Positions 294 to 14,121 are shown, numbered from the stretch's first letter. The stretch: 64,000 nt of DNA from Candidatus Eiseniibacteriota bacterium (GCA_005893305.1 VBOZ01000029.1:169072-233071), one strand, 5' to 3'. Notes: generated by a model not told the origin, from the letters alone. Made by a program: numbers and translations.

Positions 294-2360
294 CTACTTC
301 GTAAGCGTCACCTTCAGCACCGCGGACTGCGCTCCGCCGGCGAGCACCTGATCCGTTCTCACGAAGTAGATTCCCGACGATGCCTGCTGGTTCTGGTCAT
401 TCGCGCCGTCCCAACGCACCTCATGGGTGCCCGCCGCCGTCATCTCACCCTGCTTCAGCGTCCGAACGAGGCGGCCGTCCATCGAGTAGACGCGGAGCGT
501 GACCGGCCCCTCGCTCTTCACGGTGTATGAGATCGCCGTCTCTGGGTTGAACGGATTCGGTGAGGCCGATGTCATGATCGGTGCCGAGCCTGTGCCGCCG
601 GTTCGGAGGGTGACCGACTTCACGCCTTGGAGCGGCGCGGTCCCCGACGTTGTCTGGACCTCCCCGGCGACGATGATGTTCACGGTGCTGTTATTCGGAG
701 CACCGCTGAGCAGGTCCCGGACACACGATGTGGCGAAGCTGATCTGGTAGTCGGGTACGCCGTTCAGATCCATGTCGCCGATGGTACCCGTGCCAACCCG
801 GGTGTCGGCGGCGCACTCGGTGACCGCGCCGGGGGTCGGGTAGTCGGTCTTCAGGCGGAGCGTAGCGGCGTGTATCGATGAGTACGGCATCATGGTCTCC
901 TCGATGGCAACCTTGGTGGATCCCCTTCCGGTCGAGACATCGAGGACGGTGCCGTTGTTCTTGAGGACGACCGCGACCGGGACATCGGATCGGACCGTTG
1001 CGGTCGTGGAGTCGTCATCGGAAAGGCCGCCCGCGTCGGCCACATGGAGCATCACCGGGAAGACCCCCTCGGCGGGGTATGCGTGCGCGGGGGTCGGGCC
1101 AGAGGCGGTCTTGCCGTCCCCGAAATCCCAAGTGAACGCAAGCGCATCGCCGTTCGGATCGGACGAGGCGGTACCGTTGAAGTCGATGGACTGAGTCGCG
1201 AGCCCTGCGTACGGTCCGCGGGCGTTTGCCTCCGGAGCGCGGTTTCCGACGTTCAGCAGTACCGCCACGGAATTGGATGACGGGAGCGTGACCACGAGGT
1301 CGAGCCGCGAGTCGCCGTTCAGATCCGCCGGCGCGATGAATCCCGGGGCACCTCCCGTCTCGTACACATACTGCGCGTCTCTCCGCCCGTCGCCGGCGCC
1401 GGTGAGGATTGCGACGCCGCCGCTGTCCGGCAACGTCGATAGATCCAACAGCCCGTCGCCGTTGAAGTCGCCCTTGCCGAGCACACCGGGCGCGAAGGGA
1501 GACCCCCAGTCGATCACATCTCCGAACGTTCCGTCGCCGTTGCCCAACAGCACCGACAGGATGTGGACGTCGAAAACGACCGTTGCAAGATCCGATTTTC
1601 GGTCCCCGTTCAAGTCGCCGACCGCGATGATGTCCGGATCCCCGCCGGAGGGCACGTGGTAGACGGGCGTATATCCGCCGTAGCCAAAGGTGCCGTCGCC
1701 GTTTCCAAACAGCACCGTGATCCCTCCACCCTTCGAAAACGCGATATCCGGCTTCGAGTCTCCGTTCAGGTCGGTCACGGCGACCGAATAAGCGACGCCC
1801 CAGCGATCGTCGTCCGTCCTTGGCGCGAAGGTGCCGTCCCCATTGCCGAGAAAGACGGACACGATGCCAAAACCCACCACGACGACGTCCGGCTTAGAGT
1901 CCGCGTTCAGATCGGCGATCGCGAAAAACGTGGATGGTCCCTGTGGATTTGCCGTGGGGAAGTCGGCCCTCTCGCGAAACGACCCGTCGCCGTTGCCGAG
2001 GAGAACCGAGACGGCGGCTTGACCCAAGGTCAGCACGTCCAAGATCCCGTCCTGGTTCATGTCACTGACGAGGACACGGAACGGCCCCGTCCCCGTTGCG
2101 TATTCCCTGTGCGGCTGGAAGGCCCCGGTCCCGTCGCCCAAGAGGACGGAGACGATGCCCGATCCCTCGTGTGCCGTGACGAGATCCAGAGCGCCGTCCC
2201 CGTTGAGGTCGCCTACCGCAGCGTCCCCGGGGCCGAGCGCCGTTTCGAACTGCGTCGGCGCTCCGAACGGCTGGCCCGAAGCTCCGCTCGGGGCGAGTTC
2301 GATCAGCGAAATGGAAAGGAGCAGAGCGGTGGGTAGAGAGGTCCGATAGATTCCATTCAT
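294..2360 (-). CDS. Secreted FG-GAP/VCBS-repeat protein with a PKD-like domain and a C-terminal FlgD-Ig-like/T9SS-type sorting domain
   Basis: 688-aa ORF with signal peptide MNGIYRTSLPTALLLSISLIELAPSGASG and at least seven DLNGD(G/S)xxDL FG-GAP repeats. The C-terminus reads NPFNPETAISYTV...LRVYSMDGRLVRTL...HEVRWDGANDQ...SGIYFVRTD. AGGAGG ribosome-binding site upstream. Confidence 0.85.
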   Translation of the reverse strand: MNGIYRTSLPTALLLSISLIELAPSGASGQPFGAPTQFETALGPGDAAVGDLNGDGALDLVTAHEGSGIVSVLLGDGTGAFQPHREYATGTGPFRVLVSDMNQDGILDVLTLGQAAVSVLLGNGDGSFRERADFPTANPQGPSTFFAIADLNADSKPDVVVVGFGIVSVFLGNGDGTFAPRTDDDRWGVAYSVAVTDLNGDSKPDIAFSKGGGITVLFGNGDGTFGYGGYTPVYHVPSGGDPDIIAVGDLNGDRKSDLATVVFDVHILSVLLGNGDGTFGDVIDWGSPFAPGVLGKGDFNGDGLLDLSTLPDSGGVAILTGAGDGRRDAQYVYETGGAPGFIAPADLNGDSRLDLVVTLPSSNSVAVLLNVGNRAPEANARGPYAGLATQSIDFNGTASSDPNGDALAFTWDFGDGKTASGPTPAHAYPAEGVFPVMLHVADAGGLSDDDSTTATVRSDVPVAVVLKNNGTVLDVSTGRGSTKVAIEETMMPYSSIHAATLRLKTDYPTPGAVTECAADTRVGTGTIGDMDLNGVPDYQISFATSCVRDLLSGAPNNSTVNIIVAGEVQTTSGTAPLQGVKSVTLRTGGTGSAPIMTSASPNPFNPETAISYTVKSEGPVTLRVYSMDGRLVRTLKQGEMTAAGTHEVRWDGANDQNQQASSGIYFVRTDQVLAGGAQSAVLKVTLTK

Positions 2361-2465
2361 CGCGTCCTCCTAGCAGCCGCCCCCCAGCCCTGAAGGTGGC
2401 CGCGGCTCAAGTCCCCGTCCCGGTAGGAGGGGACGCGACGGATCGTACGGGACGCGCGTGCGAAC

Positions 2466-2507
2466 CGGTATTCGCTGGATTCCAGATCCGGCGATGAAAA
2501 ACTACTG
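2466..2507 (-). promoter_or_regulatory. Copy (a) of a conserved ~45-nt intergenic element (plus strand ATTCG..GGAT..GGCGATGAAAAACTAC), about 110 nt upstream of the minus-strand FG-GAP gene start
   Basis: Aligns with the copies at 4755-4799, 7844-7882 and 11408-11447, all in the same orientation relative to the downstream minus-strand genes. Confidence 0.5.
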
Positions 2508-2550
2508 ATGAGCCGGGCCGGGCGGTTTGGCCGCCTCCCCGGGCAATTCG

Positions 2551-4638
2551 TTATTTCGTAAGCGTTAGCTTCAGCACCGCGGACAGCTCCCTGTCGCCGA
2601 GCACCTGATCCGTCCTCACGAAGTAGATGCCCGACGAGACCGGCTCGCTCCGGTCGTTCGCGCCGTTCCACCACACTTCATGCGTGCCCGCCGTCGTCAT
2701 CTCTCCATGCTTCAGCGTCCGAATCAGGCGGCCGTCGATCGAGAAGATTCGCAGCGTAACCGGCCCCGCGCTGTTCACCGTGTACGAGATCGCCGTCTCC
2801 GGGTTGAACGGGTTCGGCGAGGCGGATGCGTGGATCGGCGCCGAGCTGTGGGCCGTGCGAACGGTGACCGTCTTCACGCCGCGGAGCGGCGCGGTGCCCG
2901 ACGAGGTCTCGACCTCTCCGGTGACGATGATGTTCGCCGTGGTGTTGTTCGGAGCCCCATCGAAGAGATCCCTGACACACGATTCGGCGAAGCTGATCAT
3001 GTAATCAGGTACACCATTCAGATTCATGTCGCCGAGAGTACTCGTGCCGGCCTTGATCTCGGCCGCGCACTCGGTGACGGTGCCGGGGGTAGGGTAGTCG
3101 GTCGTCAGGCGGAGTGAGGTGGCGACAATGGACGAGTAGGGGACCATGGCCTGCTCGACGGCCACCTTCGTGTATCCCCTCACCTTCCTGGCATCGAGGA
3201 CGGTTCCGTTGTTCTTGGCGATGATCGCGACCGGGACGTCGGATCGGACCGTGGCCGTCGTGGGGTCGTCGTCGGAGAGGCCGCCCGTGTCGGTGACCTG
3301 GAGGATTACCGGGAAGACGCCCTCCGCCGCGTAGGCATGCATGGGGGTCGGGCCCGTGGCCGTCCTGCCGTCTCCGAAGTCCCAGGCGTACGCCAGCGCG
3401 TCGCCGTCCGGGTCGGACGAGCCGGTACCGATGAACTCGATGCTCTGATTGACGAGCCCGGCGTACGGCCCTCGCGCGTTCGCCACCGGATAGCGGTTCC
3501 GAATGTTGAGCATTACGGCCACGGAATCGGCTCCTCGCAGGTTGGTGACAAGATCGAGCCGCCCGTCGCCGTCTAGATCTGCCGGCGCGGTGAACCCAGG
3601 AGGACCTCCCGCCGCGCACGCAACCTGGCCGTTTGTTCGGCCATCACCGGCCCCGAGGAAGACTTCGATGGCGTTCGGATTGGTGACCACAAGATCCAAG
3701 TGCCCGTCGCCGTTGAAGTCCCCCTTGGCAATATCATCTGTAGAGGATGACCCCCACTGGATGGGCTGCCCGAAACTACCGTCGCCATTGCCTAAGAGGG
3801 TAGCCATGACATCGATGTCGAAAACTCTCGTCGCCAGGTCCGTCTTACCGTCCCCGTTCAAGTCCCCGACCGCGATGATGTACGGTTCGCCGCCGGGGCG
3901 CGCAAGGGAGATTGCCGCGCCCCCGCAGCCCCGAAAGCTGCCGTCGCCATTCCCACACAACACAGTGACTCCACCGCCCTTCGGATACGCGAGGTCCTGA
4001 TTCGAGTCTCCGTTGAAATCAGCGACGGCGAGCGAATAAACCGGCCATCCCATATCGTTGTCCATCCTCGCGCCGAACGTGCCGTCTCCGTTTCCTAGGA
4101 AAATAGACAGGATGCCCCAGCCGGCCACGATGGCGTCCAGTTTTGAGTCGCCGTTTAGATCGGCTACCGCTAAGAGGAATGGCGATTGGCCGTAAACGCC
4201 CGCTCTCGTGGCGTAGTCGGTCCTTGGGCCGAACGACCCGTCCCCGTTGCCGAGGAGGACAGAGAGGGCCGAGCCGCTCAGAATCAGCAAGTCGAGCTTC
4301 CCGTCCTGGTTTAGATCACCCATCCGGAGCGAGCCGGTGACGCCCGTTGGATAGTCCACGTGCGCCCCGAAAGCCCCGTTTCCGGTGCCCAGGAGGACAG
4401 AGACGCTGTTCGCGTGCGACGTGACGAGATCCAGCGTACCGTCCCCATTGAGATCTCCCACCTCGACGTGGCTGGGTTGGGACCCTGTTGCGTAGTGCGC
4501 CGGCGCTGCGAACGGCTGGCCCGGCGCTCGGCTTGGAGAGAGTCCGATCAGGGAGACGGAGAAGAGCAGGATGGCGGATAGCGTGTGGTTCCTCGGCTCG
4601 CCCCCCGCAGGGCGGCGCCGATTGGAGAAACCGATCAT
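2551..4638 (-). CDS. Secreted FG-GAP/VCBS-repeat protein with a PKD-like domain and a C-terminal FlgD-Ig-like/T9SS-type sorting domain (tandem paralog)
   Basis: Full-length paralog of 294-2360, co-linear with it. The internal Met (MIGFSNRRR...) matches the paralog N-termini; the track ORF runs to 4725. Confidence 0.8.
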   Translation of the reverse strand: MIGFSNRRRPAGGEPRNHTLSAILLFSVSLIGLSPSRAPGQPFAAPAHYATGSQPSHVEVGDLNGDGTLDLVTSHANSVSVLLGTGNGAFGAHVDYPTGVTGSLRMGDLNQDGKLDLLILSGSALSVLLGNGDGSFGPRTDYATRAGVYGQSPFLLAVADLNGDSKLDAIVAGWGILSIFLGNGDGTFGARMDNDMGWPVYSLAVADFNGDSNQDLAYPKGGGVTVLCGNGDGSFRGCGGAAISLARPGGEPYIIAVGDLNGDGKTDLATRVFDIDVMATLLGNGDGSFGQPIQWGSSSTDDIAKGDFNGDGHLDLVVTNPNAIEVFLGAGDGRTNGQVACAAGGPPGFTAPADLDGDGRLDLVTNLRGADSVAVMLNIRNRYPVANARGPYAGLVNQSIEFIGTGSSDPDGDALAYAWDFGDGRTATGPTPMHAYAAEGVFPVILQVTDTGGLSDDDPTTATVRSDVPVAIIAKNNGTVLDARKVRGYTKVAVEQAMVPYSSIVATSLRLTTDYPTPGTVTECAAEIKAGTSTLGDMNLNGVPDYMISFAESCVRDLFDGAPNNTTANIIVTGEVETSSGTAPLRGVKTVTVRTAHSSAPIHASASPNPFNPETAISYTVNSAGPVTLRIFSIDGRLIRTLKHGEMTTAGTHEVWWNGANDRSEPVSSGIYFVRTDQVLGDRELSAVLKLTLTK

Positions 4639-4754
4639 GTCAGCCCCCCAGGCCAATCGGGAGCGGCCGCCCGGCGGATCCCCCGACCCCCACGGCCGTT
4701 CCTCGACGTTGGTTTCCTTCGCCACTTGAGTGTAGGACGGGCCGCCGGGGAGGA

Positions 4755-4799
4755 CTATTCGGAAGAATACGGAATCGAGGTAGAAAATCTACGTAGCGG
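4755..4799 (-). promoter_or_regulatory. Copy (d), the most diverged, of the conserved intergenic element (CTATTCGGAAGAATACGGAATCGAGGTAGAAAATCTACG)
   Basis: About 120 nt upstream of the 2551-4638 gene start. Aligns to the other copies with the pattern ATTCG-N-GGA-N-CGGA-N-GAGGWWGAAAAWCTACG. Confidence 0.45.
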
Positions 4800-4905
4800 G
4801 GTGCCGCCGGGGTTGATAGCCAAAACAAGTTGCGACGGGGCACCGATGGGAGTAAGAAGTAGGTGGTAGGGCATTGGGGGACGTGCCGGTTTCTTACCTC
4901 GGAGG

Positions 4906-6105
4906 TTGGAGATCATGGTGAAGTGGATACTCTCAGCCCTGCTTACGGTTGTCGCGGTCGCAGGCCTCACGCAAGCGGCGGATGCGCAGTACATGTACAT
5001 GGACGCGAACGGGAACGGGGTTCATGACACGGGCGATCGGCTGAACGCGAACAACGACTCGACCTTCGTGGATATCTACTTGAGCACGACGCTGAACCGC
5101 AACGGGAGCGCGGTCACCTGCAATACCCTGCCCGCTGCCGCGATGGACATCAACTCGTACGCCTTCAGCATCGTGGCGACCGGCGGCACCGTGACGTATG
5201 GGACCTACGTCAACCGGCAGCCGGCTGCGTTCCCGAACCACGCAGAGGTGCTGAACCCGGGGGACGGGACGTACAAGGACGCGTTCTACTCGTTCTCCTA
5301 TACGCCGGGGGGCCTATTTAGGCTTGGGACGTTGACGATCACCGGCACGAGCGGGGCTCCCGCGATCACATTTGTGGATTTGATCACTGGGGCCCAGGAC
5401 TATACGTCGTTCGGGACGGAGTGTCCTGGGATAGGCGGCGACAACACGTACCGGCTGGACGGGCCGAACACGCAGGCCTTCTACGGCGTCCCTGGGGACT
5501 GGTTCGACACCGACGGCCTCGCCCGGAGCACGACCGCGGTCTCCGTCGCGCTCCAGGACGCGCAGGCCGAGGCAGGGCTTGTTCGCCTTCGCTGGATCGT
5601 CCCGGACGCGCGGAGCTCGGTCTCGATGGTGGAGCGGCGTACCGCGATCAGCGATTGGGCGACTCTGGGGCAGGCCGACGTGGAGAGCGGCGGCTATGTC
5701 CGTTACGAGGACCGGTCGGTGACCCCGGGCGAGCGCTACGCGTACCGGCTCTTCGTCCAGTCTCCGACGGACAATGGGTATTCGAACGAGGTATGGGTCT
5801 TGGTGCCCTCGGACGCGGCTGCTCCGCTCGCATTGCAGCTCGACCCCGTCTACCCGAATCCGTTCCAAACCGAGACCCGGTTCAACTTCGCGGTTCCTCG
5901 GTCCGGATCCGTCCGGCTGACCATATTCGACGTGCGCGGACGACGGGTCGCGACGGTTGTGGAGCGCGCGTTGCCCTCGGGTTGGCGCTCCGTGGCATGG
6001 AATGGCAGGGACCACTTGGGCAGGCCCGTTCCGTCGGGCACGTACTTCGCCAAGCTGGAACAGGCCGGAAAAGTCCAGATGCGGAAGATCGTCGTCGCGA
6101 GGTAA
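4906..6105 (+). CDS. Secreted hypothetical protein with a fibronectin-III-like segment and a C-terminal FlgD-Ig-like/T9SS-type sorting domain
   Basis: Signal peptide MEIMVKWILSALLTVVAVAGLTQAADA. C-terminus reads DPVYPNPFQTETRFNFAVP..VRLTIFDVRGRRVATV...WNGRDHLGRPVPSGTYFAKL. Confidence 0.75.
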   Translation: MEIMVKWILSALLTVVAVAGLTQAADAQYMYMDANGNGVHDTGDRLNANNDSTFVDIYLSTTLNRNGSAVTCNTLPAAAMDINSYAFSIVATGGTVTYGTYVNRQPAAFPNHAEVLNPGDGTYKDAFYSFSYTPGGLFRLGTLTITGTSGAPAITFVDLITGAQDYTSFGTECPGIGGDNTYRLDGPNTQAFYGVPGDWFDTDGLARSTTAVSVALQDAQAEAGLVRLRWIVPDARSSVSMVERRTAISDWATLGQADVESGGYVRYEDRSVTPGERYAYRLFVQSPTDNGYSNEVWVLVPSDAAAPLALQLDPVYPNPFQTETRFNFAVPRSGSVRLTIFDVRGRRVATVVERALPSGWRSVAWNGRDHLGRPVPSGTYFAKLEQAGKVQMRKIVVAR

Positions 6106-6135
6106 CGCCGGGGCCGCATCTCAGCGGCAGCGCCG

Positions 6136-6900
6136 CTAGGCGCCGTACAGCCCGTTCGAGCTGAACGGATACCCCTGGCCGTCGCGGAAGAGCATCCTTT
6201 GGAGCGAGACCTCCCGCGCGCTCGGCTCCACGAGCTGGTCGGGGAAGAGGATCGTCTGTCCGACCTCCACGGCGACGATATCCGTCTTCCCCACACCACA
6301 TAGGTGGCTGCCCCAAGCCTCGCCACCCTCGCCGAACATGCAGCGAATCAGGATTCCGCGGCCGAAGACGAGCTTCCCGCCGATGGTCGTGCACCGCGTG
6401 GAATATCTCCCGTCGGTCGTAATCTCCGCCACGAGCGTGGCGGGCACGCGGACGGATAGCCCGAATTCACGCGGCTCGCCGTCTTCCTGGCGCCCCAGGT
6501 TGCAGGCTTCGGCCAGCGGTGCACCCGAGGAATCGCGTATCTGAATCTGCAGAGGCGAGTGCCGGGTAATTCGAAGCGGCGGAGTCGACGATGCCGCCAC
6601 GAACCATTCACCCGGAGGGATGAGGATGGCCTCGGTCGCGATGCTCCCGCCATCTCGGTTGGCATGCTTCTTGGCAAACGTGAGCATCGCGCTGACCCCC
6701 GGCAGCACGATCGCCCCTTCGAGGGTCAACGTAGAGCCAAGCGGAGCGCCATGACCCGCCTCGCGGATCGAGGCCTGCACCTGAAGCGGCATCGAGACGT
6801 TCGCGGCGATCCGAACCGTCCGGTTGACATCCGGGTCCCGGTGGGGGATCCGGCGAAACGCGGGCGCTATCGACTGAGACATCACGTGGGTTGACATCAT
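6136..6900 (-). CDS. Hypothetical protein B of a duplicated two-gene cassette; paralog of 8043-9002; faint PilZ-like motif arrangement
   Basis: 254-aa ORF lying 9 nt downstream of A. Residues shared with B' include SMP.QVQ, TL.GA.VL, LIPPGEWF, TIGG.LVF.RGIL..CM and IGQT...PDQ. An RRIPHR motif is followed about 37 aa later by TLTLEGAIV. Confidence 0.65.
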   Translation of the reverse strand: MMSTHVMSQSIAPAFRRIPHRDPDVNRTVRIAANVSMPLQVQASIREAGHGAPLGSTLTLEGAIVLPGVSAMLTFAKKHANRDGGSIATEAILIPPGEWFVAASSTPPLRITRHSPLQIQIRDSSGAPLAEACNLGRQEDGEPREFGLSVRVPATLVAEITTDGRYSTRCTTIGGKLVFGRGILIRCMFGEGGEAWGSHLCGVGKTDIVAVEVGQTILFPDQLVEPSAREVSLQRMLFRDGQGYPFSSNGLYGA

Positions 6901-6909
6901 GACTGGCTC

Positions 6910-7752
6910 CTAATGAACGGGATACGCCGGCGCCACGGTGGAAGTGGAAGCCGTGACGCAACCGTTTTGCATCTCGGCGAGGCCCGGCTGCGCCCTTCCC
7001 AGGAGCGACTCGCCTCCCGTGATCTGCCCGATCCCATCCAGGAATGCGAGGTAGATCCAGGAGTCTCGGCCCAGTGGGGACCGAAGCGGCCGCGGGGGAA
7101 GATGAATGATGGTGTCGTCCGGGACGAGCGGCACTTCGACGGCCGCCTCCTGCTGGCCCGCGTCGACTCCCGATGAGTCGCTCGGCGACAGCGTGAGCCG
7201 GGCCCTGATGCCGGACCGGATGGAGACGTCGCCGGACATCGCGAGGTCGGAGATCGGATTCAGATCGAACACCTCGCCCCTGACGACCATCGCGTCGACG
7301 AAGAGGTTGAGTGGAAGAGACGGGTTCAGGTCGAACGGCCCCTGATCGCACCGGCCCAAGCGGGTCCGGGGGGCGAGCGGGGATCCGCCGCCGACGTACT
7401 GGATCCAGAGATCCGGTGGACGCCCCACTTCCGCCCAGTCGAGTGCCTGAGGCTGAATCGACAGGGATCGGTCGTGGAGGAGCGCGATCCGCTCGCTGGA
7501 TGTTTCCTCGAGCGGAAGGGAAGTGCCGCGCTCGACCCTGCGGTAAGTCAGCCGCGCGCCGAATCCACCGGCCTTGATCGTGCCTCCCACCGTCACGCGC
7601 CCGCCCGGTCCGCCGCGGAGCGCGCCCGGGCTCATCGTGGGCTCGATGTGCAGGGCCATGGGGATCGTGACCGGCACGAATCGCATGATCCGCAGTACAG
7701 CTGAACTCGTCACGTCCAAGGGTTGCTCGCGCTGCGTGATCACCCTTGCCAT
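6910..7752 (-). CDS. Hypothetical protein A of the duplicated two-gene cassette; paralog of 9018-9917
   Basis: Start MARVITQ is preceded by AAGGAG. Residues shared with A' include LRIMRF.PVTIP, VGGTI.A.GFGARLTY, SERIALLHDR, GRPPDLWIQ, TRLGRCDQGPFDL and PIGRDSWIY. The track ORF extends to 7995, probably as a read-through artefact. Confidence 0.7.
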   Translation of the reverse strand: MARVITQREQPLDVTSSAVLRIMRFVPVTIPMALHIEPTMSPGALRGGPGGRVTVGGTIKAGGFGARLTYRRVERGTSLPLEETSSERIALLHDRSLSIQPQALDWAEVGRPPDLWIQYVGGGSPLAPRTRLGRCDQGPFDLNPSLPLNLFVDAMVVRGEVFDLNPISDLAMSGDVSIRSGIRARLTLSPSDSSGVDAGQQEAAVEVPLVPDDTIIHLPPRPLRSPLGRDSWIYLAFLDGIGQITGGESLLGRAQPGLAEMQNGCVTASTSTVAPAYPVH

Positions 7753-7843
7753 TGTGTGTCTCCTTTCATCACCTGGCGATTCGGCCGCCAACCGCTCCTC
7801 GTCCCCATACGGAAGGAAGTATCGCCACGGGGAGAAGGAGCCG

Positions 7844-7882
7844 CCATTCGATGGATTGCGGACTTGAGGATGAAAAACTACG
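7844..7882 (-). promoter_or_regulatory. Copy (b) of the conserved intergenic element (CCATTCGATGGATTGCGGACTTGAGGATGAAAAACTACGG) between B' and A
   Basis: About 95-130 nt upstream of the A start codon. The downstream ATACTTCCTTCCGTATGG also matches the sequence around the TPR gene start codon (ATACTTCCTTACGTATGG). Confidence 0.5.
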
Positions 7883-8042
7883 GATGGTTCGGGTTGCGAT
7901 TTGCAAGGAGAACGCGGGCCGAGTTGGCGAATGCGATGAAGATCGCGCCCAAAAGGGGTGAGCGCCGGATGCTTGGTCGCCACTCCCGACGACATGGGTC
8001 ATCCGGCGCTCCGGAAGGCATCCATTTTTTGCGAGTTTCAGA

Positions 8043-9002
8043 TCAAATAGAACCACCTCCTCTCCAAGGTTTCCCGTTCCGAGCACCCGCGCGAGGGACG
8101 AATCGCCCCAGGGGGTGCCCGAGTCCGTCCAAGAAGGAGATCGCGCGCAACGGATGAGCGGGTGTCGTCCTCGACATCGGCTGATCGGGGATGCGAACAG
8201 TCTGGCCGATCGGAATCGCAACGGCTTCGGTGGCGGCGACCAGGGGCTCGTCGTCGTACCGATCCGGCTCGCGCCACGGATACATGCAGTGCGCGAGGAT
8301 GCCGCGGAGAAACACGAGGTTGCCGCCAATGGTGGACCGAGAGCTCGGCACGAGAGACAAGGTGTCTGTCGCGATCTCCACCGTCACCGCCACGGGGACG
8401 TGGAAGGAAAGCGCGAATCCATGCGGCTCTCGGTCACAAGGTCCGACCTCGCAGGTCTCGGAGATGCGGGTGCCGTCCCCGTCGTGGAATCGAATGCGGA
8501 TCGGCGCACCGGGATCGATCGGGGCGCGGCTGGCCGCCGCCGCGACCGTGAACCATTCGCCGGGCGGGATCAGCGTCATCGTGTTCTGTTTGAAGCGGTC
8601 CGCGTTGAAATGACTCTGGTGGGCGTCCCGTCCGAAGCTGAGTACCGCAGCCAGCCCCGCGAGGACGACGGCGCCATCCAGGGTCACCCGGAACCCATGG
8701 GGATCGTGGCATTCCGTGAGGCGGACCGATCCCTGTACCTGTACGGGCATCGAGAGAGCAGCGGAGAAGCGCAGCATCCGAGACCGGTCCGAGCCGGGGT
8801 GAATTCTCTGTCGGTTCGATTCAGGTACGAGTGGGTGCGCCGCGTGCATTCTCTCCATGAGTCCTCCCGTTCCTATCGCGAATGCGTGAGCTCCATCTCT
8901 CGCATCGATCAATCTTCCGTGGCGATGCAGCCGGCGGTTCCGGTCTCGTGGGCGCGTAGCCCCGCTGGGGACACTCGGAGAGCTATAGGTCGGGTCCGCC
9001 AC
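8043..9002 (-). CDS. Hypothetical protein B' (paralog of 6136-6900)
   Basis: Clear paralogy to B. The true start may be the internal MERMHAAHP (about 8858), which has a GGGAGG ribosome-binding site; the longer track ORF begins 15 nt after the A' stop. Confidence 0.6.
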   Translation of the reverse strand: MADPTYSSPSVPSGATRPRDRNRRLHRHGRLIDARDGAHAFAIGTGGLMERMHAAHPLVPESNRQRIHPGSDRSRMLRFSAALSMPVQVQGSVRLTECHDPHGFRVTLDGAVVLAGLAAVLSFGRDAHQSHFNADRFKQNTMTLIPPGEWFTVAAAASRAPIDPGAPIRIRFHDGDGTRISETCEVGPCDREPHGFALSFHVPVAVTVEIATDTLSLVPSSRSTIGGNLVFLRGILAHCMYPWREPDRYDDEPLVAATEAVAIPIGQTVRIPDQPMSRTTPAHPLRAISFLDGLGHPLGRFVPRAGARNGKPWRGGGSI

Positions 9003-9017
9003 ACGGGTTCCTGGACG

Positions 9018-9917
9018 CTAGCGACCGCCACGGTCCAAATGCGTCCTCCTCTCCAGCAGCCCGTCCGGGCTGACCAATGAGCTTTCCACGACGCCGGGCT
9101 CCGCTTTCCCGAGTAACGACTCTCCGCCCGTCGGCCGGCCCGCTCCGTCCAGAAACGTGACGTAGATCCAGGAATCGCGCCCGATCGGCCCGTGCAGCAT
9201 CCGCCGCGGCAGCTGGACCTCGGTGCCGCCTGGAAACAACGACACATCGGCAGGCGTGGTCGGATCGCCCGGCCTCGGGGCCGGACCGCCGTTCTCGGTG
9301 AGGGTGAATCGCGCGACGATTCCGGTCCGGATGCAGATCTCCCCGGCCAGGGCGAGCATCGGCATGGAATAGGGATCGGATCTCTCCGGTCTCAGGATGG
9401 CTGCGTCCACGGAGATTCCCAGGGTGAGGTTTGGGGTCAGGTCGAATGGACCTTGGTCGCAACGGCCCAGGCGGGTGAGGCCCGTGACCGGGGTGCCTCC
9501 GCCGTCGAGGAACTGGATCCAAAGATCCGGAGGACGGCCCGCGACGGGGCGGTCCACGGCTCGCGGCGGGAGCGTCAGGGTCCGGTCGTGAAGGAGAGCA
9601 ATTCGCTCGCTGGTGACCTCATCGGCCGGCGTGGTGCCGCTTCCACGTTGGCGATAGGTAAGCCGGGCGCCGAAGCCTTCGGCCGTGATTGTTCCCCCCA
9701 CCGCGACGCGCACGCCCGGTCGGACGACGAGAGTTCCGGAGTTGACCTTGGGTTCAATGCGCATCGGCACCGGAATCGTGACGGGCATGAATCGCATGAT
9801 CCGAAGGGCGACGACGCCCGAATCCCGCGGGGATCGTCCTCGATGCGTCGAAAATTCATCCATGATGGAACTCCCTTTCCCGGCTGGCGGGCCTCCCCGC
9901 CTATCTTGCGTTTTCAT
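9018..9917 (-). CDS. Hypothetical protein A' (paralog of 6910-7752)
   Basis: 299-aa ORF. Its start overlaps the 3' end of the upstream sugar-transferase gene by about 17 nt, suggesting translational coupling. Confidence 0.7.
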   Translation of the reverse strand: MKTQDRRGGPPAGKGSSIMDEFSTHRGRSPRDSGVVALRIMRFMPVTIPVPMRIEPKVNSGTLVVRPGVRVAVGGTITAEGFGARLTYRQRGSGTTPADEVTSERIALLHDRTLTLPPRAVDRPVAGRPPDLWIQFLDGGGTPVTGLTRLGRCDQGPFDLTPNLTLGISVDAAILRPERSDPYSMPMLALAGEICIRTGIVARFTLTENGGPAPRPGDPTTPADVSLFPGGTEVQLPRRMLHGPIGRDSWIYVTFLDGAGRPTGGESLLGKAEPGVVESSLVSPDGLLERRTHLDRGGR

Positions 9918-10644
9918 CGTTTGCCAGCACCTGAATCGTCCTGGCCATGATCTTCAGATCGAGAAGGAAGCAGTAGTTTCGGATGTAATGGATGTCGTAG
10001 CGCAACTTCCGCCGTGCCGCCCTCGTCGACTGCGTGTAGCCGTTGCTGACCTGCGCGAGGCCGGTGATGCCGGGCTTCACGGTGCAGCGACTCGAAAAGC
10101 CCGGGATCTCCTTGTCCAGCTTGGCCAGGAAGATCGGCCGCTCGGGGCGTGGACCGACGACGCTCATCTCGCCTCGAAGCACATTCCAGAACTGGGGCAG
10201 CTCGTCGAGGTGCGTGCGACGGAGAAACGCCCCGACGCGAGTCACTCTCGCGTCGTTCGTGGCCGCCCAGACCGGCCCCGTCTCCTGCTCCGCGTTCGCG
10301 ACCATGCTCCGGAACTTGAACATCAGAAACGGACGGCCGCGGAGCCCGGCCCGTTCCTGCCTGAAGAGGACCGGTGAGCCCGATTCCAGCCAGATCGCCA
10401 CGGCGACCACGACGTAGATCGGGAGGAGCGCCACGAGGCAAGTCACCGCGATCACGAGATCGACGGCTCGCTTCGCGAGATCCCTCTCCTTCGGGTGTGC
10501 AAGCCTCCACGGCCGTCCCGCGGCAGTCACCGCTGCATTGTTTGGCTCGGTTCCCATACTCTTGGAGACGATAGGAACGGGACGCCGGGCGAGCCATTCG
10601 GTGATACCCCGATTCGCCGAGGGGAAAATTACGGAGGCGGGCAT
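9901..10644 (-). CDS. Polyprenyl-phosphate sugar phosphotransferase (initiating bacterial sugar transferase, WbaP/EpsL-type C-terminal catalytic domain)
   Basis: Contains the family's core PVLFRQERAGLRGRPFLMFKFRSM...ELPQFWNVLRGEMSVVGPRP, with one transmembrane helix upstream. Its start ATG overlaps the TPR gene stop (TGATG). Confidence 0.85.
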   Translation of the reverse strand: MPASVIFPSANRGITEWLARRPVPIVSKSMGTEPNNAAVTAAGRPWRLAHPKERDLAKRAVDLVIAVTCLVALLPIYVVVAVAIWLESGSPVLFRQERAGLRGRPFLMFKFRSMVANAEQETGPVWAATNDARVTRVGAFLRRTHLDELPQFWNVLRGEMSVVGPRPERPIFLAKLDKEIPGFSSRCTVKPGITGLAQVSNGYTQSTRAARRKLRYDIHYIRNYCFLLDLKIMARTIQVLANDENAR

Positions 10645-11372
10645 CAGCGCACCTCCGATGCGCGGAGCGCGCGCAGAAGCGTCCGCTCCAACGCGGGGTT
10701 GCCCAATCGCTGCGCGAGCGAGATGCCCAACGCGAGCGTCCGCGTGTCATCAGGCCGGAGCTCCATGGCGAGCTGAAACGCTGAGTACGCTTCGCCGAGT
10801 CGGCCGTCCTCCAGCGCCATGCCCAGGATCCCCGTCGCGATCCACTCGAAGTCGGGCAGGAGCGATCCGGTGCGCTTGAGGTCGGCCAGGGCCGCTCCGT
10901 AGTTCCGATCCAGCTCATGGGCGAGCGCGCGCAACGCATAGAGCTCGGGCGCGGCTCCCGACCGTCGGAGCGGCGGCGTCAGCGCCGCCGCGGCGCGGGC
11001 CGGATCTCCAACCAAGCAGCTCACTCGACCCACCAGCATGGCCGCCTCGGAGTTCAAGCTGTCGACGGCGAGCGCCCGCTGCCCCCAGTCCAGCGCCGCC
11101 GAGTCGTCACCGAAGTTCTCGTACAGAGAGGCGACTCGAGACAACGCGTAGCTCGAGTGGGGATCCAGCGTGACGAGGGACACGGCCCAGGCGATCGCCT
11201 TCAAGCCATCGCCTTTCGCCGCCGCCAGCTCGGAGCGGACCTGACACTCGATCGGGGTCGGAGGATCTGCCGCCGACGAGGACGCGCCGGCGGCGATGGC
11301 CGTGGCCACGAGGGCCGGCACCATGGCCGCTTTCCATCCACCGTTGAAGCTTTGTTTGCGCCCGGTATCCAT
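10644..11372 (-). CDS. Secreted tetratricopeptide-repeat (TPR) protein
   Basis: Signal peptide AAMVPALVATAIAAGASSSAAD followed by TPR-like helical repeats (A..Y...G....A......AL). Confidence 0.7.
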   Translation of the reverse strand: MDTGRKQSFNGGWKAAMVPALVATAIAAGASSSAADPPTPIECQVRSELAAAKGDGLKAIAWAVSLVTLDPHSSYALSRVASLYENFGDDSAALDWGQRALAVDSLNSEAAMLVGRVSCLVGDPARAAAALTPPLRRSGAAPELYALRALAHELDRNYGAALADLKRTGSLLPDFEWIATGILGMALEDGRLGEAYSAFQLAMELRPDDTRTLALGISLAQRLGNPALERTLLRALRASEVR

Positions 11373-11407
11373 ACGTAAGGAAGTATTGCGGCAGATGCGT
11401 CGCGCCC

Positions 11408-11447
11408 ACCATTCGGTGGACTACGGCCCGGGATAGGAAAAACTACC
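11408..11447 (-). promoter_or_regulatory. Copy (c) of the conserved intergenic element (CCATTCGGTGGACTACGGCCCGGGATAGGAAAAACTACC) between the response-regulator stop and the TPR start
   Basis: About 40-75 nt upstream of the TPR ATG. Contains a CCACC-ATTC-GGTGG hairpin. Confidence 0.5.
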
Positions 11448-11509
11448 TAGTGGGGAAGAGGGGGAGGGAGGGACGAGGCTTGAGGGCAAAAAAACGGCCG
11501 TGCGGAGGG

Positions 11510-12142
11510 CTAGGGGATGATGAGGCCCCTTCGTATCGCGTAGCGGACCAACCCGGCGGTCTCGTGGATGTCGAGCTTCTCCATGATATGAGCCCGGTGT
11601 GCCTCGACGGTCCGCGCGCTGATATCGAGCGCTACGCCGATCTCCTTGGACGACCGGCCCTCCGTGATGAGCTGCAGCACCTCGCGCTCCCGCGGGGTCA
11701 AGGGGTCGTCCGGCAAATCGACCTTGGAGATGCAGGCCTCTACGACCGCCTTGGAAATGCCGGGGCTCAGATAGACCGAGCCCTGGGCGACCTCGCGGAT
11801 GGCCTGCACTAGGTGCGCGGTCGCCTGCGTCTTGAGGAGGTACCCGCGGGCGCCGGCCCGAAGCGCCTCGATGACGTAGGGGTCCTCCGTGTGCATCGTG
11901 AGGACGATCACGCGCGTCTCGGGCGAGCACTGAAGGACGCTTCGCGTCGTCTCGAGCCCGTTCAGCTGAGGCATGCCCAGGTCCAGCACCGCGATGTCGG
12001 GCTTCAACTCCTTGGCCAGGCGGACGGCCTCGCGGCCGTCCGGAGCGGATCCGACGACCTTGAAGCCTTCCGCGTTGAGAAGTGTGGCCAGGCCGTCCCG
12101 GATCACGGCGTGGTCATCGGCCAAAAGGACGCTCTCACGCAC
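11510..12142 (-). CDS. NarL/LuxR-family response regulator (REC + HTH_LuxR)
   Basis: Receiver motifs LLADDH...D (phospho-acceptor Asp in DIAVLDLGMP) and a C-terminal LTPREREVL.L...G.S.KEIG..L.IS..TVE.H LuxR helix-turn-helix. Start overlaps the histidine-kinase stop. Confidence 0.9.
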   Translation of the reverse strand: MRESVLLADDHAVIRDGLATLLNAEGFKVVGSAPDGREAVRLAKELKPDIAVLDLGMPQLNGLETTRSVLQCSPETRVIVLTMHTEDPYVIEALRAGARGYLLKTQATAHLVQAIREVAQGSVYLSPGISKAVVEACISKVDLPDDPLTPREREVLQLITEGRSSKEIGVALDISARTVEAHRAHIMEKLDIHETAGLVRYAIRRGLIIP

Positions 12143-13073
12143 GGATCGTCTCCAGCGGGATCGTCACCAGGAGCTCCGTTCCCTTGCGCTCGCCGGATTG
12201 GATCTCCAGTGTCCCCGAGAGCGGAGCGATCCGCTCGCGAATTCCAATCAATCCCAGACCGCGGCCCCCTTGACGCGTGCCCTTGGCCGCGGGGGGAAGC
12301 CCCACCCCGTCGTCGCGGATCGAGCATCGAACCAGGCCGTCCTCGTGCAGCAGCGTGATCGTGACGCGAGAGGCCTGGGCGTGCCGGGCCGCGTTGTTCA
12401 GCGCTTCCTGGACGATCCGATAGAGCGTCGTCTCGACGACCGGCGGCAGCCGTTCCTCGGTCGAGCCCTTGACGATGACGGCAATCCCCGCGCGCCGGGA
12501 AACTCCGTCCCCCAGGAACTGGATCGCGGGGACGAGGCCCAGGTCGTCGAGGATCAGCGGGCGGAGCTCGTGCGAAATCCGGCGGAGCTGCTCCTCGATC
12601 CGATCCAGAAGGCCGCGCACGTCTTTGAGCCGCTGCCTCGACGAAGGAGCGAGGTCGCGGCCGACCTCGTGGAGGGCGAGGTGAACCGAGGCCAGAAGCT
12701 GCCCGGCGTCGTCGTGGAGCTCGCGCGCGATCCGCTGCACCTGCTCCTCGAGGATCTCATTGATCCGTCGAAGCGCCGAGTTGGCGTCGCTTACCCCGCG
12801 ATGGGCCATCTCGAACGGCGAGAACGACTCCCGCGCGAAGCCCTCCGCGGCGCGGAGGATTGCCCCGAACTTCTCGGGAATGCCCGCCTCCTGGCAGACG
12901 GCGAGGAGCGCGGCGTGCTGGAGCGCGGCCATCTCGAGCGCGCCGACTCCGGAAGCGAGCGCCTCTCGGCCCAGCTCGTACGCCGCGTTGAGGGACGCTT
13001 CGCCTCCGCCGGCGACATGCCCGCGGAGTGCGGCCGCGTACCGCGATTCGAATGCAGGCGTGCCGTTATTCAT
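12135..13073 (-). CDS. Cytoplasmic sensor histidine kinase (HisKA_3 + HATPase_c) with an RsbU_N-like N-terminal domain
   Basis: H-box ELHDDAGQLL and an ATPase region with N, G1 and G2 boxes. The N-terminal ~100 aa (AAYELGREALASGVGALEMAALQHAALLAV) resembles the RsbT-binding N-domain of RsbU. ATGA overlap with the upstream phosphatase gene. Confidence 0.8.
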   Translation of the reverse strand: MNNGTPAFESRYAAALRGHVAGGGEASLNAAYELGREALASGVGALEMAALQHAALLAVCQEAGIPEKFGAILRAAEGFARESFSPFEMAHRGVSDANSALRRINEILEEQVQRIARELHDDAGQLLASVHLALHEVGRDLAPSSRQRLKDVRGLLDRIEEQLRRISHELRPLILDDLGLVPAIQFLGDGVSRRAGIAVIVKGSTEERLPPVVETTLYRIVQEALNNAARHAQASRVTITLLHEDGLVRCSIRDDGVGLPPAAKGTRQGGRGLGLIGIRERIAPLSGTLEIQSGERKGTELLVTIPLETIRA

Positions 13074-13687
13074 CGTCCGGGCTCCGTGAAGGATGCTACC
13101 ACCACGAGCGCGTCGTCCGACTTCTTACCGTGGCGGGCCAGGATGAGGTCGGCGATGTGCTTTGGCGGCGCGCCGGGCGAGATCAGCTTCGTGAATCCGT
13201 GGGAGATTCCGTCGGTGGTGAAGACCAGGGTGTCTCCTTGCCCGATCGGCAGCACGGTGCCGCTCAGCGCCGGCAGCCGGCTCCCGACCACGCCGGCGCG
13301 ATTCACCAGCCCCTCCGACCGGGGCCGGAAGGTCGGATCCCCGCGGAAGAGGGTGCCCTCCACGTTCCCGACGCCGGACCAGGACAGGAAGCCTTCCGAC
13401 GGTCGAATCGACGCGACGCTCACGGCCGCGCCCCGCGTGCTCCGGAGCGCGTCGTGGCACATGCGCAAGAGCGAGATCGGTCGCTCCCCGGCGTGCTTCG
13501 CCAAGAGCTTCGCTGCGACCGCCACGGCGGCGCCCGCCTCGCGTCCATGGCCGGCACCATCCAGAACCGCGATCATGATTCCGTCCGCGAACGGTTGGAC
13601 GACGCAAAGATCCCCCGACTCCGCGGCGTCGTTCAGCGGGCGGTGCGCGACGGCCCACTTCATTGAGAGCGCTGTCACGGTTTCCAT
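13070..13687 (-). CDS. PP2C/SpoIIE-family serine phosphatase (RsbX-like feedback phosphatase)
   Basis: Carries the SpoIIE/PP2C signature D.GHG (VLDGAGHG...VFTTDGI). At 205 aa it has only a catalytic domain, like RsbX. Confidence 0.8.
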   Translation of the reverse strand: METVTALSMKWAVAHRPLNDAAESGDLCVVQPFADGIMIAVLDGAGHGREAGAAVAVAAKLLAKHAGERPISLLRMCHDALRSTRGAAVSVASIRPSEGFLSWSGVGNVEGTLFRGDPTFRPRSEGLVNRAGVVGSRLPALSGTVLPIGQGDTLVFTTDGISHGFTKLISPGAPPKHIADLILARHGKKSDDALVVVASFTEPGR

Positions 13688-14121
13688 TTTTTTGCCGTTA
13701 CCGTGGTGCCGACGCCAAGCTGGGAGACGATCTCCATCTCGTCCATGAGCCGCTTGACTCCGGGCAACCCCAAGCCCAATCGCCCTGCGGTGGAATATCC
13801 GTCCTGGAGGGCCTGGCGGACGTCCGCAATTCCCGCTCCTTCGTCCTTGGCCACGACGGTCAGGCCGCGCTTCCCGTTCAGCTCGATCGGGATCAGCCGG
13901 ATCTCGCCCCGCTTCGCGTACGTCACGATGTTCCGGGCGAGCTCGGAAATGGCCGTGGCGATCAGGGTCGCGTCTCCGGGCGAGAAGCCGATCCCCAAGG
14001 CGAGCTCGCGACCCTTTTGGCGAGCGGCGACGATGTCAGCTTCGGTTACGAGCGGCACGCCCTGCTCCGGCGACCCCGATGGGGCGGATGAATTGTTGTC
14101 CGAACTCGCCGATGTGCTCAT
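13675..14121 (-). CDS. RsbT/RsbW-like serine kinase (GHKL ATPase, anti-sigma regulatory factor fold)
   Basis: Contains TAISELARNIV, DEGAGI and GLGLPGVKRLMDEM. ATGA overlap with the upstream STAS gene. Confidence 0.8.
   Translation of the reverse strand: MSTSASSDNNSSAPSGSPEQGVPLVTEADIVAARQKGRELALGIGFSPGDATLIATAISELARNIVTYAKRGEIRLIPIELNGKRGLTVVAKDEGAGIADVRQALQDGYSTAGRLGLGLPGVKRLMDEMEIVSQLGVGTTVTAKKWKP

What the first reader, a model, noticed from the sequence alone, without database searches (positions are those of the whole stretch)
2466..11447. Conserved ~45-nt intergenic element in four copies, each 50-150 nt upstream of a minus-strand gene or operon; a candidate regulon operator or leader-RNA motif
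The copies at 2466-2507, 4755-4799, 7844-7882 and 11408-11447 align as ATTCG-N2-GGAY-N-CGGA-N3-GAGGWWGAAAAWCTACG, all in the same orientation. They precede FG-GAP paralog 1, FG-GAP paralog 2, cassette gene A, and the TPR/sugar-transferase/A'B' operon. Each copy carries a short hairpin around the ATTCG core (CCAT-TCG-ATGG; CCACC-ATTC-GGTGG; CTGG-ATT-CCAG), which suggests compensatory changes. Copy (c) lies directly between the LuxR-family response-regulator stop and the TPR start, so the element may be the binding site of that regulator (the stressosome-TCS output) or a shared promoter or leader. Two copies contain ATGAAAAACTAC (MKNY...) and the third has AGG instead of ATG, so conservation is at the nucleotide level, not the peptide level. 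A weaker possible fifth copy (GTAAAAACAC...GATGG...TTCGGGG) lies at about 15560-15600, upstream of the rsbR-like gene.
Basis: seen in the sequence. Interest (0 to 1): 0.75.

Follow-up and report, generated by a model that had tools for sequence, protein, structure and literature searches.

The report
Shared activator site in five promoters
A roughly 39-base DNA element sits at the same distance upstream of five promoters in one cell-surface gene cluster of an uncultured soil bacterium, and it is most likely the docking site for the response regulator encoded next door, so it is an ordinary kind of gene switch but points to the first candidate target genes for a stress-sensing "stressosome" that signals through a two-component system.

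Summary
The four copies are real, on the minus strand, in one ungapped register: T-NN-GTAG-N-TTTTC-N21-CGAAT. A 20-base pattern derived from these four copies matches 4 times against 0.01 expected. There is a true fifth copy at 10596-10635, between the TPR and sugar-transferase genes.

Every copy, and every orthologous copy in related Candidatus Eisenbacteria contigs, has a sigma-70-type -10-like hexamer (nAnnnT) 22 or 23 nt downstream of CGAAT, and no TTGACA-like -35. This places the element at about -73 to -35 of five activator-dependent promoters. The organism uses canonical sigma-70 promoters elsewhere.

In three further lineages the orthologous NarL/LuxR-type regulator gene (77-78% identity) is followed directly by the element, although the sensor differs: stressosome plus kinase, MASE1 kinase, or none adjacent. 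The element was found only in this gene cluster and only in this lineage.

Best reading: it is the operator through which the adjacent regulator activates a local regulon (TPR, EPS priming transferase, two novel all-beta protein pairs, FG-GAP/PKD proteins). Binding and start sites are inferred.

The parts
2470..2508 (-). Copy a of the element (T-NN-GTAGTTTTTC-N21-CGAAT), upstream of FG-GAP/PKD paralog 1 (294-2360)
   Evidence: conserved in L046, L082, L096
2442..2447 (-). -10-like hexamer TACGAT, 22 nt after CGAAT of copy a; inferred start site near 2435
   Evidence: the hexamer is kept in L082 while the spacer differs
4757..4795 (-). Copy b (GTAGATTTTC variant), upstream of FG-GAP/PKD paralog 2 (2551-4638), in a divergent intergenic region shared with the + strand T9SS-sorted protein 4915-6105
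   Evidence: L046 and L096
4729..4734 (-). -10-like hexamer TACACT, 22 nt after CGAAT of copy b; inferred start site near 4722
7846..7884 (-). Copy c, upstream of the A-B gene pair (A 6910-7752, B 6136-6900)
   Evidence: orthologous copies in L010, L012, L014, L016, L061, L100
7818..7823 (-). -10-like hexamer GATACT (GATAAT, TACCAT or TATTAT in orthologs), 22 nt after CGAAT of copy c; inferred start site near 7811
10596..10635 (-). Copy e, newly found here: GTAATTTTCC-N22-CGAAT between the TPR stop (10644) and the sugar-transferase start (ATG 10557)
   Evidence: conserved in L010 9234, L012 7108, L016 5645
10568..10573 (-). -10-like hexamer TATCGT, 22 nt after CGAAT of copy e; inferred start site near 10561, 3-4 nt before the ATG
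11411..11449 (-). Copy d, 61 nt after the response-regulator stop, upstream of the TPR / sugar transferase / A' / B' operon
   Evidence: orthologous copies in L010, L012, L016, L057, L062, L064, L072, L092, L109
11382..11387 (-). -10-like hexamer AATACT, 23 nt after CGAAT of copy d; inferred start site near 11375, about 3 nt before the conserved ATG at 11372
11510..12142 (-). NarL/FixJ-type response regulator (REC + GerE helix-turn-helix), the candidate binder
   Evidence: Pfam; NCBIfam
12135..13073 (-). Histidine kinase (weak RsbU_N + HisKA_3 + HATPase_c), the presumed RsbT-controlled partner of the regulator
   Evidence: RsbU_N is also flagged in orthologs
13070..15421 (-). Stressosome module: RsbR 14528-15421, RsbS 14118-14486, RsbT 13675-14121, RsbX-like PP2C 13070-13687
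   Evidence: gene calls
8043..11372 (-). Target operon d/e: TPR 10644-11372, EPS priming glycosylphosphotransferase 9901-10557, A' 9018-9863, B' 8043-8858
6136..7752 (-). Target operon c: A (280 aa) and B (254 aa), lineage-specific all-beta proteins
294..4638 (-). Targets a and b: two FG-GAP/PKD/FlgD_ig paralogs (64% identical). A third paralog starts at window 207 and runs off the window, with no element of its own

Best explanation
The element is a DNA-level cis-regulatory site, not an RNA. It occupies about -73 to -35 of five sigma-70-type promoters that have a recognisable -10 hexamer but no -35 hexamer. These look like activator-dependent promoters in which a bound activator replaces the -35 contact.

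The most likely activator is the NarL/FixJ-type response regulator encoded immediately upstream (11510-12142). The proposed pathway is:
1. The stressosome (RsbR/S/T/X) releases RsbT.
2. RsbT switches on the RsbU_N-HisKA_3 kinase.
3. The kinase phosphorylates the regulator.
4. The regulator binds the element. The element contains two 8-bp direct repeats, TCCGTAGT and TCCGnAnT, 22 bp apart (about two helical turns), plus an invariant CGAAT abutting the -35 position.
5. Binding recruits RNA polymerase to five promoters in the adjacent 11-kb cluster.

The cluster encodes a TPR protein, an exopolysaccharide priming sugar transferase, two A/B pairs of novel all-beta proteins, and secreted FG-GAP/PKD proteins.

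Shown: the copies, their fixed register, the -10 hexamer at a fixed offset, conservation in orthologs, absence of RNA structure, and restriction to this cluster and lineage.
Inferred: the start sites, activation rather than repression, the identity of the binding protein, and the stressosome-to-kinase link.
For: (1) Real and non-random. Four exact matches to a 20-base pattern read off these same four copies, against 0.01 expected. Orthologous copies are conserved in contigs whose proteins are 52-75% identical, while the flanks diverge.

(2) Promoter architecture. In 18 of 19 non-redundant sites a hexamer with A at position 2 and T at position 6 lies exactly 22 nt after CGAAT; in the 19th it is at 23 nt. 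All other offsets from 8 to 44 give 0-3 sites. The hexamers are TACGAT, TACACT, GATACT/GATAAT, AATACT and TATCGT/TATCCT/TATCAT. The stretch where a -35 would lie is not TTGACA-like.

(3) The organism uses canonical sigma-70 promoters: TTGACG-N18-TAAACT before the tRNA genes and TTGCAG-N16-TATTAA before rsbR.

(4) Not RNA. There is no Rfam hit, RNAalifold predicts 0 pairs, and the hairpins show no covariation.

(5) Link to the regulator. Copy d starts 61 nt after the regulator's stop codon. The element directly follows the regulator ortholog in each of these loci:
- L110: regulator 77% identical, same stressosome-kinase operon.
- L111: regulator 78% identical, but a MASE1-HisKA_3 kinase.
- L113: regulator 77% identical, no adjacent kinase.
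In all three the element has the same 21/22-nt spacing and a -10 hexamer at 22 nt.

(6) Local regulon. No further copies were found in the 64-kb window. All 12 or so true hits in a metagenome-wide pattern scan are of types a, c or d. Type b (GTAGATTTTC) and type e (22-nt spacer) cannot match that pattern and turned up only in the follow-up matrix scan of the hit loci. A scan of 185,579 species genomes gave only chance-level single hits in unrelated taxa.

(7) The strongest internal self-similarity of the element is a direct repeat of period 22: 5.17 of 8 positions identical, against a mean of 1.95 and sd of 0.71 over 2162 comparisons.

Against: - There is no experimental start site or binding data. 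Everything about position relative to +1 rests on the -10-like hexamer.
- NarL/LuxR-family proteins usually bind inverted repeats. Here the clearest symmetry is a direct repeat, and no consistent dyad is present.
- The target genes (A/B, sugar transferase) are also conserved next to the regulator in L110, L111 and L113. Synteny therefore cannot separate 'element belongs to the regulator' from 'element belongs to the target genes and is bound by something else'.
- A regulator ortholog at 66% identity with a stressosome operon (L112) has no such element.
- The RsbU_N match of the window's kinase is below Pfam's cut-off (E = 6.6e-4).
- There is no copy upstream of the rsbR operon, so there is no sign of autoregulation.
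Confidence: 0.55

Rival explanations
1. It is the operator of a different transcription factor, activator or repressor, encoded elsewhere in the genome. The adjacent response regulator acts on other targets.
For: Synteny links the element as tightly to the A/B and sugar-transferase genes as to the regulator. The element lacks the dyad symmetry typical of GerE-domain dimers. L112, with a 66% identical regulator, lacks the element.
Against: The regulator gene is the only DNA-binding protein gene found in the conserved cluster. The element begins within about 35-65 nt of its stop codon in five lineages (the window, L010, L110, L111 and L113), even though the upstream sensor changes. The absence of a -35 argues for an activator rather than a repressor.
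Confidence: 0.2
2. It is the promoter of an alternative sigma factor. For example, -35 = GTAGTT and -10 = G-A-TC with a 16-nt spacer, with transcription starting in or just after CGAAT.
For: There are two conserved blocks at fixed spacing, all in the direction of the downstream gene. GTAGTT to GnAnTC has a canonical 16-nt spacer. A stressosome is classically coupled to sigma B.
Against: - No sigma, RsbV or RsbW gene is in the operon; the output is a kinase-regulator pair.
- The blocks do not match the sigma-B consensus (GTTTaa-N12-15-GGGtAt), nor ECF (AAC/CGT), sigma-28 or sigma-54 consensus sequences. These consensus sequences are recalled from general knowledge.
- This model leaves unexplained both the invariant CGAAT downstream of its '-10' and the sigma-70-type -10 hexamer at a fixed 22 nt in 19 of 19 sites.
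- Conservation spans about 39 contiguous bp, including the 'spacer'.
Confidence: 0.12
3. It is a structured leader RNA (riboswitch, attenuator or sRNA-binding site) shared by the transcripts.
For: Small local palindromes occur around CGAAT in individual copies, such as CCACC-GAAT-GGTGG and TATTC-TTCC-GAATA. The distances to the start codons are broadly similar.
Against: No Rfam family matches. RNAalifold gives an empty consensus on 18 sequences. The two candidate stems pair in 68-72% of cells, no better than the shuffles (129-131 of 500 shuffles reach the observed value), and show almost no double changes. The palindromes are in different registers. The -10 hexamer lies downstream of the element.
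Confidence: 0.03
4. It is a relic of duplication or a mobile or repetitive element (REP/MITE end), without regulatory function.
For: Copies a and b precede tandem paralogs that are 64% identical. A/B and A'/B' are duplicated cassettes.
Against: - Sequence outside the element is not alignable between copies.
- Copies d and e precede non-paralogous genes, and A' has no copy of its own.
- All copies are intergenic, co-oriented with the downstream gene and at a fixed distance from a -10 hexamer.
- No inverted copies or target duplications were seen.
- The element is absent from the rest of the window and from unrelated genomes.
Confidence: 0.03

Closest known systems
Class II (-35-overlapping) activator-dependent promoters of LuxR/NarL/FixJ-family regulators, such as the lux box centred near -42.5 for LuxR and the UhpA sites from about -80 to -32 at uhpT (recalled from general knowledge, not tested here)
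   Same: There is a recognisable -10 and no -35. A conserved site abuts or overlaps the -35 position and extends upstream to about -73. The adjacent regulator has a REC + GerE architecture.
   Different: The sequence is unrelated to the lux box, the NarL heptamers (TACYYMT) or other published boxes as I recall them. The clearest internal symmetry is a 22-bp direct repeat rather than a dyad. Binding has not been shown.
Stressosome (RsbRST) modules with a two-component output, as predicted by Pane-Farre et al. 2005/2017 and studied in Vibrio vulnificus (PMC10014275, PMC9237108; RsbU_N-kinases noted in PMC12143880)
   Same: An RsbR-RsbS-RsbT-RsbX operon is followed by a kinase with an RsbU-like N-terminal domain and a response regulator. 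There is no sigma B, RsbV or RsbW.
   Different: In V. vulnificus the downstream two-component system is thought to act on c-di-GMP, and that paper describes no DNA operator for it (PMC10014275). Here the regulator is a DNA-binding NarL type with a candidate operator and a five-promoter local regulon. The organism is an uncultured Candidatus Eisenbacteria.
Sigma-B-dependent general stress promoters (GTTTaa-N12-15-GGGtAt), the classical stressosome output
   Same: They are controlled, by inference, by a stressosome. The upstream block contains GTTTTT.
   Different: There is no sigma B partner-switching module in the locus. The downstream blocks do not match GGGTAT. A sigma-70-type -10 lies 22 nt further downstream.

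Membership tests
Sigma-70 activator-dependent (class II-like) promoter | A -10 hexamer (TAnnnT-like, A2 and T6) at a fixed position in all members | tested here: met
   A2 and T6 are at offset 22 after CGAAT in 18 of 19 sites and at offset 23 in the other. Other offsets give 0-3 sites.
Sigma-70 activator-dependent (class II-like) promoter | No consensus -35 hexamer 16-18 nt upstream of the -10, although the organism uses TTGACA-type promoters elsewhere | tested here: met
   The region 17 nt upstream of the hexamers reads GGTGGG, GGCGGC, AGTCCT or ACCGGT. The consensus promoter scan finds nothing at these sites. The tRNA promoter is TTGACG-N18-TAAACT.
Sigma-70 activator-dependent (class II-like) promoter | Transcription starts 6-8 nt after the -10 and depends on the activator | not testable with these tools
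   Needs 5'-RACE or dRNA-seq and reporter assays.
NarL/FixJ/LuxR-family response-regulator operator | A cognate REC + GerE regulator encoded with the targets | tested here: met
   Pfam Response_reg 2.7e-30 and GerE 1.1e-20. The element follows the ortholog's stop codon in L010, L110, L111 and L113.
NarL/FixJ/LuxR-family response-regulator operator | Dyad-symmetric (inverted-repeat) half-sites of about 7-10 bp, as in the lux box, NarL 7-2-7 or DosR box | tested here: not met
   The best internal symmetry is a direct repeat of period 22. Inverted matches are weaker and in inconsistent registers.
NarL/FixJ/LuxR-family response-regulator operator | Sequence-specific binding by the regulator | not testable with these tools
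   Needs EMSA, footprinting or DAP-seq.
Structured cis-regulatory RNA (Rfam-type leader) | A conserved secondary structure supported by covariation, or a match to a curated family | tested here: not met
   No Rfam hit. RNAalifold predicts 0 pairs. The candidate stems are no better than the shuffles.
Sigma-B-type promoter | GTTTaa-N12-15-GGGtAt, plus a sigma B/RsbV/RsbW partner-switching module | tested here: not met
   The operon contains RsbR, S, T, X, a kinase and a regulator only. The candidate -10 reads GnAnTC, not GGGTAT. The consensus is recalled from general knowledge.
Stressosome module with two-component output | RsbR (N-terminal domain + STAS), RsbS (STAS), RsbT (kinase) and RsbX (PP2C) in one operon | tested here: met
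   Pfam hits. The same order is seen in L010, L012, L016, L110 and L112.
Stressosome module with two-component output | A histidine kinase carrying the RsbT-binding RsbU N-terminal domain | tested here: inconclusive
   RsbU_N scores E = 6.6e-4 at 20.2 bits, below the 25.5-bit cut-off in the window's kinase. The match is 'weak' in L110 and in the contig (no DNA held), and unmarked (stronger) in L112.

The most novel reading that the evidence does not exclude
This would be the first defined transcriptional output of a stressosome that signals through a two-component system instead of sigma B. A NarL-type regulator would bind an unusual direct-repeat operator (TCCGnAnT x2, 22 bp apart, plus CGAAT). 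It would switch on a compact, lineage-specific envelope and exopolysaccharide programme in the uncultured phylum Eisenbacteria. That programme includes two previously undescribed all-beta protein families and near-leaderless mRNAs.
Probability: 0.4. Interest if true: 0.55.

Novelty: new member of a known kind. Interest (0 to 1): 0.4.

Why it matters
Stressosomes are widespread outside Firmicutes, but what they control when no sigma B is present is largely unknown. In the one Gram-negative system that has been studied, the output is thought to be c-di-GMP turnover (PMC10014275).

This locus offers a concrete, testable wiring diagram: sensor complex, kinase, DNA-binding regulator, a 39-bp operator and five promoters, with a small and well-delimited target set. 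It is compact enough to rebuild in a heterologous host.

It also gives promoter architecture information for a phylum with no cultured member, and it flags two unannotated protein families as the main cargo of the response. As a kind of thing, an activator site shared by neighbouring promoters, it is ordinary.

Tried and rejected
- My first spaced pattern was off by one base and found nothing.
- Sigma-B, sigma-28, sigma-54, sigma-H, ECF and Bacteroidetes-type (-33 TTTG / -7 TAnnTTTG) promoter consensus sequences, all recalled from general knowledge, were compared by eye. None fits. The tRNA promoter shows the organism uses canonical sigma-70 elements.
- The simple sigma-70 and terminator scan found nothing at the copies and was at chance level overall.
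- The genome-contig scan with TNNGTAGTTTTN14GNANTN4CGAATR returned 29 single hits in unrelated taxa, which is chance level, and no Eisenbacteria. No whole-genome regulon could therefore be derived.
- In the metagenome scan, 64 loci were hit, but only about 12 are true and all come from the same gene contexts.
- L112, a regulator ortholog at 66% identity with a stressosome, has no element.
- L013 has an A-B pair without an element on the held contig.
- The recognition-helix comparison between regulators with and without the element shows only small differences (R/K, A/S/T, H/R) and is not decisive.
- A possible second conserved stretch (GGCGGCCGCTGGCC-CCAGG) near the A-B junctions is at chance level in the window.
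- The contig carrying regulator P0045 had no DNA available.

Full report
**1. The observation**

Read on the minus strand, which is the strand of the downstream genes, they align without gaps:
- a: CATCAGTAGTTTTTCATCGCCGGATCTGGAATCCAGCGAAT
- b: GCTACGTAGATTTTCTACCTCGATTCCGTATTCTTCCGAAT
- c: CATCCGTAGTTTTTCATCCTCAAGTCCGCAATCCATCGAAT
- d: ACTAGGTAGTTTTTCCTATCCCGGGCCGTAGTCCACCGAAT

The common pattern has 20 fixed bases and was read off these four copies. It matches these four places exactly and nothing else in the 64 kb, even with three mismatches. The chance expectation is 0.01. GTAGNTTTTC alone is found exactly only at these four places.

A real fifth copy (e) lies at 10596-10635 (-), between the TPR stop codon and the sugar-transferase start. 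It reads GTAATTTTCC-N22-CGAAT, with a spacer one base longer, and is conserved in three related contigs.

**2. Gene context**

Pfam and NCBIfam give the following order on the minus strand (gene calls in 17):
- RsbR, RsbS, RsbT and an RsbX-like PP2C.
- A histidine kinase (weak RsbU_N, HisKA_3, HATPase_c).
- A REC-GerE response regulator.
- Copy d, then a TPR protein.
- Copy e, then an EPS priming glycosylphosphotransferase (TIGR03025), A' and B'.
- Copy c, then A and B.
- A + strand T9SS-sorted protein.
- Copy b, then FG-GAP/PKD paralog 2.
- Copy a, then FG-GAP/PKD paralog 1, followed by a third paralog that has no copy of its own.

The contig comes from soil metagenomes. Protein A' is identical to a protein that NCBI lists from a Candidatus Eisenbacteria genome.

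**3. What the element is attached to**

I anchored all non-redundant copies on CGAAT. These came from the window, from orthologous loci obtained through homologs of protein A and of the regulator, and from true hits of a metagenome pattern scan. A hexamer with A at position 2 and T at position 6 sits exactly 22 nt downstream in 18 of 19 sites, and 23 nt downstream in the last. Every other offset from 8 to 44 has 0-3 such sites.

The hexamers are TACGAT (a), TACACT (b), GATACT/GATAAT/TACCAT/TATTAT (c), AATACT (d) and TATCGT/TATCCT/TATCAT (e). They are conserved while the 22-nt spacer is not. No TTGACA-like hexamer lies 16-18 nt upstream of them.

The organism does use canonical sigma-70 promoters: TTGACG-N18-TAAACT precedes the tRNA genes, and TTGCAG-N16-TATTAA precedes rsbR.

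Taking the hexamer as -12 to -7, the parts of the element fall as follows:
- CGAAT at -39 to -35.
- The G-A-T block at -48 to -44.
- GTAGTTTTTC at -70 to -61.
- The invariant T at -73.

This is the layout of an activator-dependent promoter in which a protein bound from about -73 to -35 substitutes for the missing -35 contact. The start sites this implies are inferences (minus strand): 2435, 4722, 7811, 10561 and 11375.

**4. Not an RNA**

- Rfam at gathering thresholds finds only two tRNAs in the window.
- RNAalifold on 18 distinct copies with flanks returns an empty structure.
This is no better than shuffled partners (129 and 131 of 500 shuffles reach the observed value), and there are only one or two double changes.
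- The small palindromes around CGAAT are in different registers in different copies.

**5. Internal anatomy**

Fifteen columns are invariant across the 18 distinct copies, and three more are at least 90% conserved.

The strongest self-similarity within the element is a direct repeat of period 22: T(C/A)CGTAGT against TC(C/G)GnAnT. On average 5.17 of 8 positions are identical within each sequence, against a mean of 1.95 and sd of 0.71 over all 2162 placements. Twenty-two bp is about two helical turns, so both repeats face the same side of the DNA. This is suggestive of two protein-binding units, but it does not prove them. No consistent dyad was found.

**6. Who binds it**

The only DNA-binding protein gene found in the conserved cluster is the NarL/FixJ-type regulator.
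- Copy d begins 61 nt after its stop codon.
- L110 has a regulator 77% identical in the same stressosome-kinase-regulator operon. The element (22-nt spacer, TATCCT at +22) follows its stop codon and precedes a sugar-transferase remnant, an A-like gene and a B-like gene.
- L111 has a regulator 78% identical whose kinase is MASE1-HisKA_3, with no stressosome. GTAGTTTCCT-N21-CTAAT-N22-CATCTT follows the regulator and precedes a B-like gene.
- L113 has a regulator 77% identical with no adjacent kinase. GTAATTTTTC-N21-CGAAT-N22-TACCGT follows the regulator and precedes a sugar transferase.

The sensor changes while the regulator-element-target unit persists.

L112 has a regulator 66% identical and a stressosome in another lineage. 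It has no element. Its recognition helix differs at a few positions, which is only weak evidence.

Because the targets are conserved together with the regulator, synteny alone cannot exclude a different binder.

**7. Extent of the regulon**

- No other copy lies in the window.
- A pattern scan of one genome for each of 185,579 species gave 29 single hits in unrelated taxa, which is about the number expected by chance.
- The metagenome scan gave 64 loci. About 12 are genuine (GC above 0.6 and high matrix scores), and all are of types a, c or d. Types b and e cannot match that pattern and appeared only in the follow-up matrix scan of the same loci.
- The A family has only 35 clusters among 5.8 billion proteins.

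The element is therefore confined to a narrow Eisenbacteria lineage and, as far as could be seen, to this one gene cluster.

**8. Comparison with known systems**

Functionally, the element resembles class II promoters served by LuxR/NarL-family activators. Membership in that operator class is only partly met: the regulator and the position fit, but the dyad symmetry does not, and binding is untested.

The upstream signalling genes match the described class of stressosome modules with a two-component output. [quoted passage not shown] In Vibrio vulnificus the downstream two-component system is thought to act on c-di-GMP (PMC10014275). That paper describes no DNA operator, and I know of none for such a system.

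The sigma-B promoter reading fails on both gene content and sequence.

**9. Verdict**

The operator/promoter interpretation is supported, and the leader-RNA interpretation is not. The thing is an ordinary kind of element, an activator site shared by neighbouring promoters, in an unusual and potentially useful setting.

Interest is 0.4. Confidence in the full mechanism is about 0.55. Confidence that it is a promoter-associated DNA site rather than an RNA or a repeat is about 0.9.

Noticed in passing
[not shown]
   Followed up: partly
window 11366-11376, 10551-10561 and 7802-7812 (-): In copies c, d and e a start codon in the conserved context (A)CGT-ATG-G(G/A)(G/A)-AC follows the -10 hexamer by only 9-10 nt. 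The TPR and sugar-transferase mRNAs would therefore have leaders of about 3-4 nt, which is near-leaderless. The ATG at 11372 gives the TPR protein a proper charged signal-peptide N-region, unlike the gene caller's start at 11324. A pyrimidine-rich CTTCCTT that resembles an anti-Shine-Dalgarno sequence precedes the ATG.
   Followed up: partly
window 7740-7808 (-): In copy c the same ATG opens a 22-codon upstream reading frame (MGTRSGWRPNRQVMKGDTQWQG) that overlaps the start of gene A. The ATG is replaced by AAG or GTG in orthologs (L012, L010, L014, L061), so it may not be translated. The 5' UTR stretch GGCGGCCGAATCGCC is conserved among orthologs.
   Followed up: partly
L016 (GCA_035635675.1, DASQAO010000253.1): A contig deposited as 'Candidatus Dormibacteraeota bacterium' carries this same locus with element copies identical or nearly identical to the window's (copy d is 46/46). 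This is probably a mis-binned Eisenbacteria contig.
   Followed up: no
L111 7019-9257 and L113 7551-8183: The orthologous regulator is paired with a MASE1-HisKA_3 kinase in one lineage and has no adjacent kinase in another. The same output module has been connected to different sensors.
   Followed up: partly
window 4638-4725 (-): The start of FG-GAP paralog 2 is ambiguous. The longest reading frame begins at GTG 4725, which lies about at the inferred start site. The gene caller's ATG at 4638 is more plausible and leaves a leader of about 84 nt.
   Followed up: no
window 15691-16116 (+): An OsmC-family gene is divergently transcribed from rsbR. It keeps that position in L010, L012 and L016, but not in L110 or L113.
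   Followed up: no
window 294-6105: The three FG-GAP/PKD proteins and the + strand protein end in FlgD_ig or Por_Secre_tail-like domains (T9SS-type sorting signals). This suggests the regulon's products are exported to the cell surface.
   Followed up: no
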